A model generated the notes under the pieces. It did no database searches. It saw only the letters and a list, made by a program, of their open reading frames with translations, and had not been told where the DNA came from. Of a DNA stretch of 64,000 nucleotides, positions 24,743 to 51,492 are shown piece by piece. Both the position numbers and the translations under genes were made by a program. The first letter of the stretch is position 1. Each line of letters begins with the position of its first letter. The stretch is from a virus. Its lineage: Duplodnaviria > Caudoviricetes. Where the stretch lies: IMG/VR virus record IMGVR_UViG_3300028048_000002, positions 98,818-162,817 of that record. One strand, given 5' to 3'.

Positions 24743-25426
24743 TTAAAAATCTACTTTATCTTCAGATGCAATATCGCTTTCAAGAGAAGATTCTAGAATA
24801 TCAGGCATTTCAGAAACTTGAGTAAGCTTTCTAGGTGAAAGCTTATATTCAGGCATAGAATCTACATCTACCGAAGCGTTAGAACTAGTAGCACTGAGAT
24901 GCTCATTATAATCTTGAGAAGTCCAATCTTTACAGATAGAATTGTAGTATTCAGGAAACTCTACATCCAACTTGCTCAAAATACCTTCATAATCTAACAC
25001 ATTATTCTTACCAATAGCTTGAATACTGTATCTAGTATTAATATCACCTGCAGCCCCATGTCTAGTGATTCTAAATACAAATTCAGAGGGATTAGGAAAC
25101 TTAGAAAATACATCATTTTCTAATTGCTGCTGGAACCTGATAGACCTATCCCAAAATAAAATAGTATTTGATTCAATTACATATAAAGGAATAAAGAGTT
25201 TTGGCTGAACTCGAATATTACGTTCACATGCAGGGCAAGATCGTGACCCTAAACATTGAACATATCCTGAATGATTTTCAGATTTGATATAATGAGTATC
25301 ACACATAAGCACATCTTGAATACTCTTGTACATGAAAATTACATCAGCACTATCTCCATCATTCTTCAGTAGAAACATTCCGGAATACCGCTCATTATTA
25401 TATTCAGTAATCGATTTAAATGCCAT
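24743..25426 (-). CDS. Single-stranded DNA-binding protein (gp32-like; likely start MAFKS at 25426)
   Basis: F.LKNDGD.A, H...C....CPAC Zn site, ITRHG.G...T.Y, acidic tail ending DF; GGAGG RBS. Confidence 0.7.
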   Translation of the reverse strand: MAFKSITEYNNERYSGMFLLKNDGDSADVIFMYKSIQDVLMCDTHYIKSENHSGYVQCLGSRSCPACERNIRVQPKLFIPLYVIESNTILFWDRSIRFQQQLENDVFSKFPNPSEFVFRITRHGAAGDINTRYSIQAIGKNNVLDYEGILSKLDVEFPEYYNSICKDWTSQDYNEHLSATSSNASVDVDSMPEYKLSPRKLTQVSEMPDILESSLESDIASEDKVDF

Positions 25427-25485
25427 ATTATTTACCTCCTGTATTCTTGACATTTAACGGCGTCAAAAGATATTAACGATATTAA

Positions 25486-25979: not shown

Positions 25980-26061
25980 TCCGGGTGGAGGGATTCGAAC
26001 CCTCATGCTCAAAGAGCGGCAGATTTTGAGTCTGCGATGTATGCCGTTCCATCACACCCGG
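25980..26061 (-). tRNA. tRNA-Leu(CAA), CCA not encoded
   Basis: CCGGGUG/CACCCGG acceptor, GCAGA-CUCAAAA-UCUGC anticodon arm, long variable arm, GGUUCGAAUCC. Confidence 0.93.
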
Positions 26062-26082
26062 ATTCTAGCATCTCTTTAAATT

Positions 26083-26156
26083 TGGAGCAGATGACGAGAA
26101 TCGAACTCGCATCTAAAGCTTGGAAGGCTTCTATTCTACCATTGAACTACATCTGC
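26083..26156 (-). tRNA. tRNA-Gly(UCC)
   Basis: GCAGAUG/CAUCUGC acceptor, loop CUUCCAA, UUCGAUU T-loop, UCCA end. Confidence 0.95.
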
Positions 26157-26157
26157 T

Positions 26158-26233
26158 TGGTAGGGGATGAAAGAATCGAACTTTCAACATACGGGTTATG
26201 AGCCCGGTGTTCTAACCATTGAACTAATCCCCC
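26158..26233 (-). tRNA. tRNA with CAU anticodon (Met, initiator-like; Ile2 not excluded)
   Basis: Loop CUCAUAA, three consecutive G-C pairs in the anticodon stem, G1.U72, ACCA end. Confidence 0.88.
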
Positions 26234-26244
26234 TCTTATAATAT

Positions 26245-26324
26245 ATCACCTTTTGATTTAAACAAATACATTGCAGAAATTTATTTAAATCTTTAACGGA
26301 CTAGCAGAATTTACCGAGGGTGAT
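26245..26324 (-). ncRNA. Unrecognised three-way-junction RNA, copy A
   Basis: AUCACC-CU-CGG-UAA...AGU-CCG-UUAAA-[13 bp hairpin]-AAAA-GGUGAU; junction sequences identical to copy B at 28462-28530, with compensatory stem changes. Confidence 0.65.
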
Positions 26325-26372
26325 TATATCCGCTATGTAATATCTTAGTATATTATAACGATGCAAGATAGC

Positions 26373-26455
26373 TACTAAGGAAATACTTACGCTAGCAAAG
26401 CTGACTGAAAACAAAATTAATCTATCTGATGCAACTAGCGTATCATCACTTAGTA
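26373..26455 (-). ncRNA. Y-RNA-like scaffold, copy 1
   Basis: UACUAAG-UGAUGA-UACGCUAG-UUGCAUC-[variable]-CUAGCGUA-AGUAUUUC-CUUAGUA; has its own upstream TCGTTA motif. Confidence 0.75.
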
Positions 26456-26524
26456 TTTATTATATTTTCAAGGTTAATCATATACGTATTAACGAATAGA
26501 TTATAAATTTATATAAATAAACTA

Positions 26525-26664
26525 GCTTGAGGAAACACTTAAATCAGCATTACAATAAGCGCTCTTCCAGACCTGAGCTAATGAGCACATTCATGCCTAT
26601 ACAGGATTCGAACCTGTGACCTCTCGATTTCCATTCGATGCAACTGATTTATCATCACTCAAAC
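26525..26664 (-). ncRNA. YrlA-like Y RNA (scaffold copy 2 with a circularly permuted tRNA domain)
   Basis: Starts about 15 nt after the Ro60 stop; same scaffold enclosing, in order, UCGA-AUGGAAA-UCGA, a T arm (ACAGG-UUCGAAU-CCUGU), a closed acceptor-like stem and a D arm (UA-GCUC-AGGUCUGGAA-GAGC). Confidence 0.85.
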
Positions 26665-26678
26665 AACTTATTTAATTA

Positions 26679-28154
26679 TCAATATACGTAATATCTTACT
26701 ATATCTAATAACGATTTTGTTTCATCCTCTTGAATTTCAATTATCTTAAACACAACATCTGTAAGTGCTGTGATATATGAAATATCAGATCGCGTTGAAA
26801 CAACTTGACTATGATAGTTTCCAAGGTCAAAGCTATAAATGTGAGAGGGTCCGTAGTTATCTACATATTTCCTCCATAAGCTGTTTGCAGACCTGCTACT
26901 ATCTGCGTAGTACGACCATCGACTACCATCCATAACTTGCATATCTGAAAACAAGAATACTCTGTCATAATGCTTATCTAACATATTGAATACTGTTGAA
27001 ATTTCAGTACCATATCCAAGACCCTCGTTTTTTGCAAGCATTGAAATTAACTTAAATTGATTGCCTGCTGTAAACGTATCTTTTTTCCACTTCTTAGCCT
27101 TCGTCCCAAATTTAATAAAATCAACATTAGACCTAAATCCAGAAACTAAGAATGCAGAAGCATAAACTGCACACAATTCTTTAATCGTCAAAGAACTGTT
27201 CTGGCTAAATCGAGAATCCATAGACCCGGAAACATCAAGGACTACAAGTGTATTCCCGTCAAGATACGGCATATTTCCTGTGGAAATCTCAAACGCTTCT
27301 GACAATGCTGTCTCAACATAGAGCCCAATTCCTTCTTGGTTAAGCGTCTTCCAAGCAGTGTAAATTTGAAGCGGCCAAACTAGTGATTTCTTGATTGCAG
27401 CCTCATTTATAATTTGAGGGACAAGGTTCTCTTTGATCCAAGAACTGGAAGCAAAAGAACATTTGCAGATATTACGAAGATTTCTGAGAAGTGCAAGATA
27501 CCCGAGCTTTTTCTCTTCAACCAAACGCTTCCATTCTGATTCTTTTTCTTCCACTGATTTCGCTGAAGAAATTTTTACTTCCCAAGTATCCGGAGTCTCT
27601 AAGGTTCCTTTCTGATATTGATCTATTGCATCAGATTTTGCATGAGTGATATTGATGATATCATGCATGTTATATTTATGATTTCGCATAGGATATTTGC
27701 CAATTTGATAGGCTGAGAGCGAACTGAGGTAATCCGCAACCCCTCGGATTAAAGCATGAGAACGCTTACCACCGAGATGATCTACAGCAGCAAATACTTC
27801 ACCTACACCATCAGGTCGATGAAAATACTTAGCATAAAAATTGCGCTTATCTTTCCACTGGACGCCATTGAGTATAGCGGCAGTAAGCTCAGAAATTGAA
27901 CGCATTCCAAGTTCATTACGTGCATATACAGCAGCTGTACCTATGAGCTCTGGAGAATATTTAGAAATCATTTGGTTAGTCAAATCTACAAACCTAGATT
28001 CTTGTTCCTCAGCTGACTCGTAGAATCGAGGTTGAAGAATTGAAGAAAAGATTGCGTTACTCCATTCATCCTCTAGATACTTTGAGTATGCTACTCCTCC
28101 CTCAAAAGTAGCAGTTTTCCGAACGTTGATGTTCTTTTCATTGAACTTGCTCAT
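26679..28154 (-). CDS. rsr: Ro60/TROVE domain ribonucleoprotein with vWA domain (likely start MSKFN at 28154)
   Basis: MSKFN...EGG.AY, FYES, YARNELGMRS, TWEVKIS, LGYLALLRNLRNI, vWA DVSGSM and FSDMQ. Confidence 0.93.
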   Translation of the reverse strand: MSKFNEKNINVRKTATFEGGVAYSKYLEDEWSNAIFSSILQPRFYESAEEQESRFVDLTNQMISKYSPELIGTAAVYARNELGMRSISELTAAILNGVQWKDKRNFYAKYFHRPDGVGEVFAAVDHLGGKRSHALIRGVADYLSSLSAYQIGKYPMRNHKYNMHDIINITHAKSDAIDQYQKGTLETPDTWEVKISSAKSVEEKESEWKRLVEEKKLGYLALLRNLRNICKCSFASSSWIKENLVPQIINEAAIKKSLVWPLQIYTAWKTLNQEGIGLYVETALSEAFEISTGNMPYLDGNTLVVLDVSGSMDSRFSQNSSLTIKELCAVYASAFLVSGFRSNVDFIKFGTKAKKWKKDTFTAGNQFKLISMLAKNEGLGYGTEISTVFNMLDKHYDRVFLFSDMQVMDGSRWSYYADSSRSANSLWRKYVDNYGPSHIYSFDLGNYHSQVVSTRSDISYITALTDVVFKIIEIQEDETKSLLDIVRYYVY

Positions 28155-28167
28155 TGCAATCACTCCT

Positions 28168-28232
28168 TACAAGGAAACTTATGTAGAAAGTAGCTTCTCC
28201 TATACGATGTAACTCTCTACTCATCACTTGCA
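28168..28232 (-). ncRNA. Y-RNA-like scaffold, copy 3, in the Ro60 5' UTR abutting the RBS
   Basis: UGCAAG-UGAUGA-GUAGAGAG-UUACAUC-[15 nt]-CUUUCUAC-AUAAGUUUC-CUUGUA, followed directly by AGGAG. Confidence 0.75.
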
Positions 28233-28238
28233 TCAATG

Positions 28239-28333
28239 GAAATTTAGATGCTGGAAATAACTTAATCAGATAAAGTAGCATAATTTCAAGTTATCTATGA
28301 AGTAACTGATCAATCATCACAGCATCTAATTTC
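28239..28333 (-). ncRNA. Y-RNA-like scaffold, copy 4
   Basis: UUAGAUGCUG-UGAUGA-UUGAUCAG-UUACUUC-[AUAA-CUUGAAA-UUAU hairpin]-CUGAUUAA-GUUAUUUC-CAGCAUCUAA. Confidence 0.75.
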
Positions 28334-28379
28334 TATATGTATATAATATAACGAACTTTAAATTTCGATATAAATCTAT

Positions 28380-28453
28380 TGGCTGCGCGACCAGGATTCG
28401 AACCTGGATAGCTGGAACCAAAATCCAGAGTCCTGCCGTTGGACGATCGCGCA
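28380..28453 (-). tRNA. tRNA-Gln(UUG)
   Basis: UGCGCGA/UCGCGCA acceptor, CUGGA-UUUUGGU-UCCAG, GCCA end. Confidence 0.95.
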
Positions 28454-28461
28454 GCATTATT

Positions 28462-28530
28462 TATGCCTTTTGCAATAGCTACCGAAGCAACTAAGCTTTA
28501 ACAGACTCTCCGAAGATTACTGAGGGCATA
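28462..28530 (-). ncRNA. Unrecognised three-way-junction RNA, copy B
   Basis: UAUGCC-CU-CAG-UAA-UC(UUCG)GAG-AGU-CUG-UUAAA-GC..(UUCG)..GC-AAAA-GGCAUA; two C(UUCG)G tetraloops indicate the minus strand. Confidence 0.7.
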
Positions 28531-28544
28531 TACTGAATAACTAT

Positions 28545-28618
28545 TGGAGCCGATAGCAGGAATCGAACCCGCATATACGCATTACAAGTGCGTTGTTCTA
28601 CCATTAAACTATATCGGC
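28545..28618 (-). tRNA. tRNA-Thr(UGU)
   Basis: GCCGAUA/UAUCGGC acceptor, ACGCA-CUUGUAA-UGCGU, CCA end. Confidence 0.95.
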
Positions 28619-28619
28619 C

Positions 28620-28708
28620 TGGCGGAGGATGTAGGATTCGAACCTACGGAGGCTATTAACCTCGACAGTTTTCAAGACTGCTTCCTTAGACCTCTCGGAC
28701 AATCCTCC
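28620..28708 (-). tRNA. tRNA-Ser(UGA)
   Basis: GGAGGAU/AUCCUCC acceptor, loop CUUGAAA, long variable arm, GCCA end. Confidence 0.95.
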
Positions 28709-28772
28709 ATATTAAAGAACTCCATGTATACTCCAAATCTATAATTAATACAGAAATAATCTGCTAACTATC

Positions 28773-28848
28773 TGGTGGATCCGGTGGGACTCGAACCCAC
28801 GGTCTCGAGATTAAAAGTCTCTTGCTTTTCCATCTAAGCTACGGATCC
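28773..28848 (-). tRNA. tRNA-Lys(UUU)
   Basis: GGAUCCG/CGGAUCC acceptor, loop CUUUUAA, ACCA end. Confidence 0.95.
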
Positions 28849-28851
28849 AAC

Positions 28852-28926
28852 TGGTGCCCCTTGTAGGACTCGAACTCACGGTCTTAGTATTAAAAGTCCT
28901 TTCTTTGCCAACTAAGCTACGGAGTC
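28852..28926 (-). pseudogene. Chimeric tRNA pseudogene: 5' Lys(UUU)-like body joined to the 3' end of an Arg-like tRNA
   Basis: 5' GACUCCG does not pair properly with 3' AAGGGGC-ACCA; T stem GUGAG/CCUAC is mismatched; anticodon stem degenerate. Confidence 0.75.
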
Positions 28927-29919: not shown

Positions 29920-29962
29920 TACTGTATATTATAACGATTCTTTAAAACTCTTTGTCACAATT

Positions 29963-51441: not shown

Positions 51442-51492
51442 ATAACTCTCCTAGAGTTTAAACCTGCACTTGATATATAATAACGAATATAC

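What the first reader, a model, noticed from the sequence alone, without database searches (positions are those of the whole stretch)
26245..28530. Second unrecognised ncRNA motif, in two covarying copies, each about 10 nt upstream of a tRNA gene
Seen: copy A (26245-26324) AUCACC-CU-CGG-UAA-AUUCUGCU-AGU-CCG-UUAAA-GAUUU...AAAUC-AAAA-GGUGAU. Copy B (28462-28530) UAUGCC-CU-CAG-UAA-UCUUCGGAG-AGU-CUG-UUAAA-GC...GC-AAAA-GGCAUA. The junction nucleotides (CU, UAA, AGU, UUAAA, AAAA) are identical, all three stems covary, and copy B has two UUCG tetraloops. A precedes tRNA-CAU and B precedes tRNA-Gln. A's long hairpin has a CUGCAAU loop resembling a Cys(GCA) anticodon loop. I cannot match the motif to hammerhead, twister, pistol, hatchet, HDV/theta or any riboswitch I know. 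Inference: a new ribozyme or processing signal for tRNA precursors, a protein-binding RNA, or a stable RNA analogous to those in the T4 tRNA cluster.
Basis: partly seen in the sequence, partly recalled or inferred. Interest (0 to 1): 0.78.

Follow-up and report, generated by a model that had tools for sequence, protein, structure and literature searches.

The report
New folded RNA in phage tRNA operons
The two flagged stretches are real copies of a previously uncatalogued, tRNA-sized, three-armed RNA found only inside the tRNA/Ro60 gene island of one small group of uncultured cattle-gut phages; the fold is well supported, but its function is still a guess.

Summary
Both copies read as described on the minus strand, the strand of the tRNAs. 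Copy A lies 11 nt and copy B 8 nt before a tRNA.

I found six more copies (five distinct) in related metagenomic phage contigs. A covariance model built without copy A finds it at E 6e-9, and the 163-kb genome holds exactly two hits. Of 20 modelled base pairs, 14 show compensatory changes (0 of 500 shuffles reach this). RNAalifold recovers the same three-way junction from an independent alignment. The junction strands (CU, UUAAA, AAAA) and the P2 internal loop stay nearly fixed while the stems vary.

Nothing in Rfam 15 matches it, and it is not a tRNA, a Y RNA or a known ribozyme.

- Six of eight copies sit 6-13 nt downstream of tRNA-Gly(UCC), so "upstream of a tRNA" is not the conserved feature.
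- The anticodon-like loop of copy A is replaced by a UUCG cap in six of the other copies.

The family is confined to one phage subclade. It is absent from about 34 other TROVE-bearing phage loci and from 9 relatives that lack TROVE.

My best reading, inferred and not shown, is a stable small RNA cut out of the tRNA precursor by host tRNA-processing enzymes, acting in trans through its junction core. Ribozyme, cis-processing element and Ro60 partner remain open.

The parts
26245..26324 (-). Copy A of the three-way-junction (TWJ) RNA. P1 26324-26319 pairs with 26250-26245. J1/2 CU is 26318-26317. P2 26316-26314 pairs with 26299-26297 around a 14-nt loop. J2/3 UUAAA is 26296-26292. P3 is a long A/U hairpin, 26291-26255. 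J3/1 AAAA is 26254-26251.
   Evidence: Sequence. The MFE equals the consensus fold at -15.8 kcal/mol, z -2.98. R1 gives 45 bits, E 6e-9. R2 gives 60 bits, E 4e-15.
28462..28530 (-). Copy B of the TWJ RNA. P1 28530-28525 pairs with 28467-28462. CU is 28524-28523. P2 28522-28520 pairs with 28504-28502 and encloses the inner hairpin UC-UUCG-GA. UUAAA is 28501-28497. P3 is 28496-28472 with a UUCG cap. AAAA is 28471-28468.
   Evidence: Sequence. R1 gives 86.7 bits. R2 gives 77.8 bits, E 3e-20. The consensus-constrained fold is -16.2 against an MFE of -17.0.
26158..26233 (-). tRNA-Met(CAU), 11 nt downstream of copy A. It is followed by tRNA-Gly(UCC) at 26156-26083 and tRNA-Leu(CAA) at 26061-25979.
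   Evidence: ARAGORN; Rfam tRNA 70.2 bits.
28380..28453 (-). tRNA-Gln(UUG), 8 nt downstream of copy B.
   Evidence: ARAGORN; Rfam tRNA 58.6 bits.
28545..28618 (-). tRNA-Thr(UGU), ending 14 nt upstream of copy B. B therefore fills a slot in the Lys-Ser-Thr-[B]-Gln array.
   Evidence: ARAGORN; Rfam tRNA 73.8 bits.
26351..26361 (-). Promoter-like word TCGTTATAATA, about 27 nt upstream of copy A. The same word stands before the other small-RNA units of the island (26704-26714 with one mismatch, 28344-28354, 29927-29937).
   Evidence: five exact matches in 64 kb, all on the minus strand, four of them in the RNA island. My own rough estimate is under one expected by chance. The word also recurs in L113 and L196 behind the TWJ copy. 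Promoter function is inferred.
26679..28154 (-). Ro60/TROVE (Rsr-like) gene lying between the two TWJ copies. This is context, not shown to be a partner.
   Evidence: Pfam TROVE, E 8e-16. There are 6623 homologues at E <= 1e-5, and the closest are 82-63% identical.
26538..26650 (-). YrlA-like Y RNA candidate just downstream of TROVE. This is context: a different RNA family from the TWJ.
   Evidence: Rfam RF02553 YrlA at 28.9 bits (gathering score 69), E 0.003, aligned over the full model length. It contains AUCGAAUG, close to the published GNCGAAN0-1G motif (PMC4201824).

Best explanation
The element is a gene for a small, autonomously folding RNA of about 70 nt (80 and 104 nt in two variants) that occupies 'tRNA slots' in the phage's tRNA/Ro60 RNA island. 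The fold is shown. P1 (4-8 bp) clamps the 5' and 3' ends. A 2-nt CU link leads to P2 (CGG/CCG), which carries a conserved internal loop (UAA opposite N-A-G-Y) capped by a 2-bp UUCG hairpin. J2/3 is UUAAA. P3 is variable in length and sequence and usually UUCG-capped. J3/1 is AAAA. The mechanism is inferred. The RNA is co-transcribed with the neighbouring tRNAs. It is freed by host RNase P cutting at the next tRNA, and by RNase E or 3' exonucleases trimming the A/U-rich 6-14-nt spacers. The P1 clamp then protects its ends, as an acceptor stem does. The hairpin caps are only structural tetraloops and P3 is freely variable. Selection falls on the junction and the P2 internal loop, so the working surface is the junction core. 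That core most likely binds a protein or another RNA in trans, as a decoy, adaptor or sponge in the phage's tRNA-centred conflict with the host.
For: - Family and fold: there are eight copies (seven distinct) in seven phage genomes or contigs.
- Covariation on alignment A6: 14 of 20 pairs have compensatory changes. The covariation score is 0.55 against 0.19 in shuffles (0 of 500 reach it) and about 0.1 for slid controls.
- RNAalifold, run on a MAFFT alignment not fitted to any model, predicts the same P1, P2, P2b and P3. Eight of its 17 pairs are compensatory.
- Strand: many G-U pairs and UUCG caps fit only the tRNA strand.
- Slot-like placement: the spacers are 6-14 nt behind a tRNA's CCA end (B-H) and 8-11 nt before the next tRNA (A, B, G).
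- Position varies. The element is first in its unit (A), between two tRNAs (B, G) or last (C-F, H). This fits a self-contained product better than a cis signal.
- Junction strands are invariant or nearly so while P1 and P3 vary freely.
- Precedent (established knowledge): T4 rnaC and rnaD are stable RNAs processed out of the T4 tRNA cluster (annotation seen).
Against: - There is no direct evidence of transcription, processing or accumulation. The only RNA-library data are assembled contigs at the same low depth as the neighbouring ORF, and they could be DNA carry-over.
- No partner has been identified.
- The family is narrow: seven related phages whose Ro60/TROVE proteins are 63-100% identical where that gene is on the contig. 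Part of the sequence invariance could therefore be shared ancestry.
- Copy C fits less well. It scores 27.7 bits, and its consensus-constrained fold is 7.8 kcal/mol above its MFE.
- Six of eight copies follow the same tRNA (Gly-UCC), which would also fit a cis role for that tRNA.
Confidence: 0.42

Rival explanations
1. It is a cis-acting processing or stability element of the polycistronic tRNA precursor. A folded block next to tRNA-Gly would guide or block RNase E, RNase P or 3' exonucleases, or protect the transcript end, and would have no life of its own.
For: Six of eight copies lie 6-13 nt behind tRNA-Gly(UCC), whose CCA is encoded. In C, D and F the element is the last structure before a new promoter-like word. 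No terminator follows it.
Against: Copies A and B sit in other positions: before tRNA-Met, and between Thr and Gln. Complete relatives carry 3-5 tRNAs but no TWJ, so tRNA maturation in this phage group does not need it. A simple nuclease block would not need about 25 fixed junction and internal-loop nucleotides.
Confidence: 0.2
2. It is a non-canonical partner RNA of the phage Ro60/TROVE protein, a second kind of Y-like RNA loaded onto the ring together with the YrlA-like RNAs.
For: Seven of eight copies lie within about 1 kb of a TROVE gene on the same strand, beside YrlA-like RNAs. The 5' and 3' ends pair in a stem, as in Y RNAs.
Against: It lacks the GNCGAAN0-1G / CGAA motif and a T-arm module (PMC4201824; PMC12135203; sequences). 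No TWJ is found in five other TROVE loci (L199-L206) or in 29 IMG/VR TROVE loci within 3.5 kb. Copy C sits in an island with no TROVE gene at the syntenic place.
Confidence: 0.12
3. It is a new class of self-cleaving ribozyme that helps cut tRNA precursors, as hammerhead and theta/HDV-like ribozymes do beside some phage tRNAs.
For: It has a compact junction with many fixed unpaired nucleotides, next to tRNA ends. Ribozymes are known in this genomic niche (theta ribozymes, PMC10879173, a lead taken that I did not read).
Against: No Rfam ribozyme model matches, even at E <= 10 on a 101-nt query. By reading, the hammerhead core (CUGANGA / GAAA) is absent. An HDV-type P1 between the 5' flank and J2/3 is possible only in copy E. 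The position relative to tRNA ends is not constant. No cleavage data exist.
Confidence: 0.08
4. It is a ligand-sensing aptamer (riboswitch-like) whose junction pocket binds a small molecule.
For: A three-way junction closed by P1, with conserved junction strands, is the typical aptamer architecture. A QueD/PTPS-like gene lies downstream of the tRNAs.
Against: There is no expression platform. No terminator or sequestered ribosome-binding site follows it. The downstream neighbour is a tRNA, a promoter-like word or unrelated sequence. No Rfam riboswitch matches.
Confidence: 0.05
5. It is a decayed tRNA gene (a T-arm-less relic) with no function.
For: It is tRNA-sized and occupies tRNA slots, with a 6-bp end stem, a 2-nt link and then a short hairpin. 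Copy A has a 7-nt CUGCAAU loop.
Against: ARAGORN finds nothing in bacterial or mitochondrial armless modes. There is no Rfam tRNA hit. The anticodon-like loop is unique to A. Compensatory changes and fixed junctions across seven phages show purifying selection on this particular fold.
Confidence: 0.03

Closest known systems
Phage T4 stable RNAs rnaC and rnaD (species 1 and 2) in the T4 tRNA gene cluster
   Same: They are small non-tRNA RNAs encoded inside a phage tRNA operon, flanked by tRNAs at short spacing, and their function is still unknown. This is the best analogy for how the TWJ RNA would be made.
   Different: Model R2 finds no similarity in sequence or fold in the T4 region that holds rnaC, rnaD and eight tRNAs. 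The T4 RNAs are 119-139 nt, the TWJ about 70 nt. Accumulation of the TWJ RNA has not been shown.
Bacterial and phage Y RNAs (YrlA/YrlB, Yrn1; phiLo Yrl1/Yrl2) bound by Ro60
   Same: They are encoded next to a Ro60/TROVE gene on the same strand, with 5' and 3' ends paired, in an island that also holds a YrlA-like RNA.
   Different: The TWJ has no CGAA-type Ro-binding motif, no large internal loop and no T-arm/D-arm tRNA-like module. It does not travel with TROVE outside one subclade.
Ribozymes beside phage tRNAs (theta/HDV-like, hammerhead) and other small self-cleavers (pistol, hatchet, twister-sister)
   Same: They share the genomic niche next to tRNA ends, a compact fold and several fixed unpaired nucleotides. 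Pistol also has a hairpin followed by UUAAA (recalled from memory, so a lead only).
   Different: No covariance-model match. The end-closing P1 with two nested hairpins is not the topology of HDV or pistol, and the hammerhead core is absent. Activity is untested.
T-arm-less mitochondrial tRNAs and tRNA-like processing signals (t-elements, mascRNA)
   Same: They share tRNA size, an end stem, a 2-nt link and a short first hairpin. Release by tRNA-processing enzymes is plausible for both.
   Different: The TWJ has no anticodon loop (UUCG caps) and no T-loop hairpin, and no tRNA finder calls it.

Membership tests
Any Rfam 15 family | Covariance-model match at or near the gathering score | tested here: not met
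   There is no hit on either copy at gathering scores or at E <= 10 in a 5-kb search. On a 101-nt query around copy D the only hit is an L20 leader at 15.6 bits against a gathering score of 42.8, E 0.37.
Y RNA (YrlA/YrlB type) | Encoded within about 2 kb of Ro60/TROVE on the same strand | tested here: met
   A, B, D, E, F, G and H lie within about 1 kb of TROVE. C does not.
Y RNA (YrlA/YrlB type) | GNCGAAN0-1G / CGAA Ro-binding motif in the basal stem region | tested here: not met
   The motif is defined in PMC4201824 and PMC12135203. It is absent from all eight sequences.
Y RNA (YrlA/YrlB type) | tRNA-like module (T-arm, D-arm) or large internal loop | tested here: not met
   The fold is a compact three-way junction with tetraloop caps. 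There is no Rfam YrlA hit on it.
Y RNA (YrlA/YrlB type) | Co-occurrence with Ro60 across lineages | tested here: not met
   There are no TWJ hits in 29 IMG/VR TROVE loci or in L199-L206 and L208.
Y RNA (YrlA/YrlB type) | Physical binding to Ro60 | not testable with these tools
   This needs a gel shift or co-purification.
tRNA (including armless forms) | Cloverleaf or armless tRNA with a 7-nt anticodon loop | tested here: not met
   ARAGORN in bacterial, -mt and -mtmam modes calls nothing in any of the 8 copies. There is no Rfam tRNA hit. P3 ends in UUCG in 6 of 8 copies.
Self-cleaving ribozymes (hammerhead, HDV/theta, twister, twister-sister, pistol, hatchet) | Family covariance model or catalytic-core consensus | tested here: not met
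   No model hits at E <= 10. By reading, the hammerhead core words are absent and no conserved HDV-type P1 can be drawn.
Self-cleaving ribozymes (any, including a new class) | Site-specific self-cleavage | not testable with these tools
   Only assembled contigs of one RNA library were available, and they cannot show RNA ends.
T4 rnaC/rnaD-type stable RNAs | Non-tRNA RNA gene embedded in a phage tRNA cluster | tested here: met
   for the TWJ; T4 annotation.
T4 rnaC/rnaD-type stable RNAs | Homology in sequence or structure | tested here: not met
   R2 finds nothing in T4 68.5-74.5 kb at E <= 10.
Riboswitch | Aptamer followed by an expression platform upstream of a regulated gene | tested here: not met
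   There is no terminator-like site next to either copy. The downstream neighbours are tRNAs or promoter-like words.

The most novel reading that the evidence does not exclude
The fixed junction is an active or recognition centre of a new kind. J2/3 reads U-U/G-A-A-A, which fits the five-nucleotide T-loop pattern, and J3/1 is an A-rich strand. Two readings follow. It could be a new class of self-cleaving ribozyme that punctuates phage tRNA precursors. Or it could be a small RNA that docks onto tRNA or tRNA-like (YrlA) elbows and so links tRNAs to the phage's Ro60 particle or shields them from host anticodon nucleases.
Probability: 0.1. Interest if true: 0.8.

Novelty: new variant of a known kind. 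Interest (0 to 1): 0.45.

Why it matters
Phage tRNA clusters are now seen as counter-defence tool kits, yet the non-tRNA RNAs inside them have had no known function since the T4 species 1 and 2 RNAs were found. This element is a clean, small example with good covariation support and a sharply defined conserved core. It sits beside a phage Ro60 gene and Y-like RNAs. That makes it a tractable object for testing three things: what such companion RNAs do, whether they are processed by the host tRNA machinery, and whether they bind phage or host proteins. Its narrow distribution limits its general importance unless a catalytic or tRNA-binding activity is found.

Tried and rejected
- **Strict core pattern in IMG/VR.** It gave 110+ rows, and none but my own genome had a P1 with the CU link. 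These are chance hits.
- **Longer patterns.** I scanned IMG/VR, JGI/ENA metagenome contigs and GTDB genomes.
  - The only true hits were L113 and its near-identical twin L188.
  - L212/L213 fall inside a HicA-like ORF, by my reading of the frame, with no family scan.
  - L210 scores 10 bits.
  - L234/L235 lie in G+C-rich, probably coding sequence without the junction words.
- **Finding relatives by protein.**
  - The TROVE protein alone found nothing in IMG/VR.
  - DNA polymerase and SSB gave 13 relatives. Twelve of them have no tRNAs at the syntenic place.
  - The nine relative records searched whole have no TWJ.
- **blastn of copy D** against E. coli genomes and GenBank phages found nothing.
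- **Sequencing runs.** One metatranscriptome (X2, assembled contigs only) has an identical 290-nt contig across copy A (26136-26425). Its depth is 3.6, no higher than over the TROVE ORF. This shows neither transcription nor a stable RNA. DNA contigs of three other cattle-gut studies (X3, X5, X7) cover parts of the region. No difference was listed inside copy A, but with about 1% divergence this is not significant.
- **Pseudoknots.** I looked by eye for pairing between the P2 loop and the flanks or P3. A 7-bp match upstream of A is not kept in the other copies, so I rejected it.
- **Anti-Shine-Dalgarno or Shine-Dalgarno mimicry by P1.** The resemblance holds only for A, D and F and is not conserved. 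Rejected.
- **CRISPR-repeat mimic (hairpin plus UUAAAG).** I could not test this.
Full report
**1. What is there**

The window is the last 64 kb of a 162,817-bp IMG/VR virus record with direct terminal repeats. All eight tRNA genes of the window lie on the minus strand, between 25979 and 29809.

| Copy | Coordinates (minus strand) | Length | Upstream neighbour | Downstream neighbour |
|---|---|---|---|---|
| A | 26324->26245 | 80 nt | promoter-like word | tRNA-Met(CAU), 11 nt on |
| B | 28530->28462 | 69 nt | tRNA-Thr, 14 nt back | tRNA-Gln, 8 nt on |

A 491-aa Ro60/TROVE gene lies between the two copies (26679-28154; Pfam TROVE, E 8e-16). Next to it is a weak but full-length match to the Rfam YrlA Y-RNA model (26538-26650; 28.9 bits, E 0.003). 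The wider neighbourhood on the same strand runs helicase, primase, tRNAs, TROVE, tRNAs, a QueD/PTPS-like gene, an SSB-like protein and a family-A DNA polymerase. The SSB reading is mine, based on a zinc-finger CxxC and an acidic tail ending in F.

**2. It is a family, not a coincidence**

Exact-pattern scans of the large collections gave almost only chance hits. Synteny was more productive.
- A contig whose DNA polymerase is 69% identical (L113, and its near-identical metagenome twin L188) carries a third copy, C, right behind tRNA-Gly.
- Fetching contigs that encode the closest TROVE homologues (82-63% identity) gave five more copies. These are D in L196/L197, E in L198, F in L204, G in L207 and H in L209.
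- Model R1, built only from B, D and E, scores copy A at 45 bits (E 6e-9 in 395 kb) and scores F, G and H at 66-85 bits.
- Model R2, built from seven copies, aligns C end to end (27.7 bits, E 1e-5), with a 53-nt insert in place of the P3 interior.
- R2 finds exactly two hits in the whole genome of the window.

**3. The fold**

On the seven-sequence alignment A6, 14 of 20 modelled pairs have changes on both sides and 85% of cells are paired. The covariation score is 0.55, against 0.19 in 500 shuffles (none reaches it) and about 0.1 when partners are slid by 1-3 columns. That alignment was fitted to the model. I therefore also ran RNAalifold on a plain MAFFT alignment of the six copies of similar length. 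It predicts the same P1, P2, inner P2b and P3, with 8 of 17 pairs compensatory.

The inner 2-bp hairpin in the P2 loop is UC-UUCG-GA in B, D, E, G and H and CC-UUAG-GG in F. The consensus fold is the MFE for A and lies within 0.6-3.3 kcal/mol of the MFE for B and D-H. Copy C is the outlier at 7.8 kcal/mol and has a competing hairpin made by a local CGGUAA duplication.

Frequent G-U pairs and UUCG caps fix the strand as that of the tRNAs.

The picture is a three-way junction:
- The innermost two P1 pairs (CC/GG) are fixed.
- The J1/2 link CU is fixed.
- P2 is CGG/CCG, with one CAG/CUG compensation in copy B.
- The P2 internal loop is UAA (UAU in F) opposite N-A-G-Y.
- J2/3 is UUAAA (UGAAA in C).
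- P3 is closed by a G...C pair.
- J3/1 is AAAA (GAAA in C).
- Everything else varies. P3 is 11 bp with a UUCG cap in most copies, about 13 bp of A/U pairs with a 7-nt loop in A, and a branched insert with UUCG- and UGCG-capped hairpins in C.

**4. Context across the family**

Copies C-H all begin 6-13 nt after the encoded CCA end of tRNA-Gly(UCC), in a Met-Gly-[TWJ] unit.
- G is followed 8 nt later by a tRNA-Ile.
- C, D and F are followed by a promoter-like word and then tRNA-Leu(UAA), 37-108 nt on.
- E and H have no tRNA after them.
- In the window the unit is permuted. A comes before Met-Gly-Leu, and a second copy B, whose P2 region is identical to that of D and G, sits between Thr and Gln. 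Related phages have nothing at that place.

So "10 nt upstream of a tRNA" is not the conserved feature. [quoted passage not shown] is.

**5. Distribution**

The family was found only in this subclade.
- Nine related virus records (eight rated 91-100% complete, one 79%; SSB about 50% identical) have no TWJ. The five of them searched for tRNAs still carry 3-5.
- TROVE was searched in three of these records and not found.
- Five more distant TROVE phage loci have no TWJ.
- 29 IMG/VR TROVE loci with 3.5-kb flanks have no TWJ.
- Copy C lies in an island with no TROVE gene at the syntenic place. The contig is only 15.7 kb, so TROVE may lie elsewhere in that genome.
- GenBank phages and E. coli genomes hold nothing similar.
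- By sequencing-run look-up the phage comes from cattle gut. Contigs 85-100% alike occur in several studies.

**6. What it is not**

| Candidate | Result |
|---|---|
| Any Rfam 15 family | No match, even at E <= 10 on a 101-nt query |
| tRNA, including armless forms | No call in bacterial or mitochondrial modes |
| Y RNA | Lacks the CGAA-type Ro-binding motif and the tRNA-like module that define bacterial and phage Y RNAs (PMC4201824; PMC12135203) |
| T4 rnaC/rnaD | No similarity |
| Hammerhead | Core absent, by reading |
| HDV type | The needed P1 can be drawn only for copy E |
| Riboswitch | No terminator or ribosome-site platform follows |

**7. How it most likely works**

What is shown: a conserved, independently folding RNA domain under selection for its fold and for its junction and internal-loop nucleotides, embedded in tRNA transcription units.

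What is inferred:
- It is made as part of the tRNA precursor.
- RNase P, cutting at the next tRNA, sets its 3' side. RNase E or exonucleases act in the A/U spacers.
- The P1 clamp makes it a stable, tRNA-sized product, as in the T4 precedent.
- The loops are mere tetraloop caps and P3 is freely variable. The functional surface must therefore be the junction plus the P2 internal loop, which suggests specific binding of a protein or RNA.
- J2/3 (U-U/G-A-A-A) fits the T-loop pentanucleotide pattern, and J3/1 could make A-minor contacts with the invariant G-C pairs of P2. Both are structural guesses from general RNA knowledge and were not tested.

I put 0.42 on "stable trans-acting small RNA". The rivals are a cis processing or stability element (0.20), a Ro60 partner (0.12), a new ribozyme (0.08), an aptamer (0.05) and a tRNA relic (0.03).

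**8. Novelty and verdict**

This is a well-supported new RNA motif, a new variant of the known kind "non-tRNA stable RNAs in phage tRNA clusters". It has a narrow distribution and no demonstrated function, so interest is moderate. It would be high only if catalysis or tRNA/Ro60 docking were shown.

Noticed in passing
window 26538-26650 (-), with 26375-26460 (-) and 28165-28333 (-): There is a YrlA-like RNA (Rfam RF02553, 28.9 bits, below the gathering score) with a permuted T-arm/D-arm module just after the TROVE gene. Further hairpin RNAs sharing an AGUU(G/A)CAUC word lie on both sides of the gene. The same layout is seen in L196 and L198. Other notes of this scan treat these as Y-like RNAs.
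   Followed up: partly
window 28855-28926 (-): This is a tRNA-Lys(UUU)-like sequence directly upstream of the real tRNA-Lys. ARAGORN misses it and it scores only 20 bits with the Rfam tRNA model. The acceptor stem looks degenerate, so it is a probable pseudo-tRNA or tRNA-like RNA.
   Followed up: no
window 26351-26361, 26704-26714, 28344-28354, 29927-29937, 51476-51486 (all -): The word TCGTTATWWTA occurs five times exactly or nearly so, always on the minus strand. Four occurrences lie 20-35 nt before small-RNA or tRNA units, and it recurs in L113 and L196. It is a probable phage promoter for the RNA genes.
   Followed up: partly
window 28163-28177 (-); also L196:920-940 and L198:940-955: A conserved hairpin UUUCCUU-GUA-AGGAG in the TROVE leader pairs CCUU with the AAGG of the ribosome-binding site. 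This may be translational control of the Ro60 gene.
   Followed up: no
L113:7425-7460 (+): A fragment copying the 5' acceptor and D-arm of tRNA-Leu(UAA) sits between TWJ copy C and the intact tRNA-Leu. It looks like the remnant of a rearranged tRNA gene.
   Followed up: no
L113:9104-13550; L113:6371-7195; L198:4485-8419: The DNA polymerase gene of relatives is interrupted. In L113 the match spans 4.4 kb against 3.3 kb here. In L198 there is an intein hit and an AcrVA2-like ORF between the two halves. An unscanned 274-aa ORF (possibly a homing endonuclease) also splits the Met-Gly tRNA pair in L113. Mobile elements are remodelling this island.
   Followed up: no
window 24743-25453 (-): A 236-aa protein with no Pfam hit is conserved upstream of the polymerase in all relatives. 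It has a CxxC...CPAC zinc motif and an acidic C-terminal tail ending in F, like the T7 gp2.5-type single-stranded DNA-binding proteins.
   Followed up: no
window 26051-26151 and 28576-28777: Very high summed contig depth occurs over tRNA-Gly and tRNA-Ser in the metatranscriptome, with joints to foreign sequence. This is cross-matching of other organisms' tRNAs, not phage expression.
   Followed up: no
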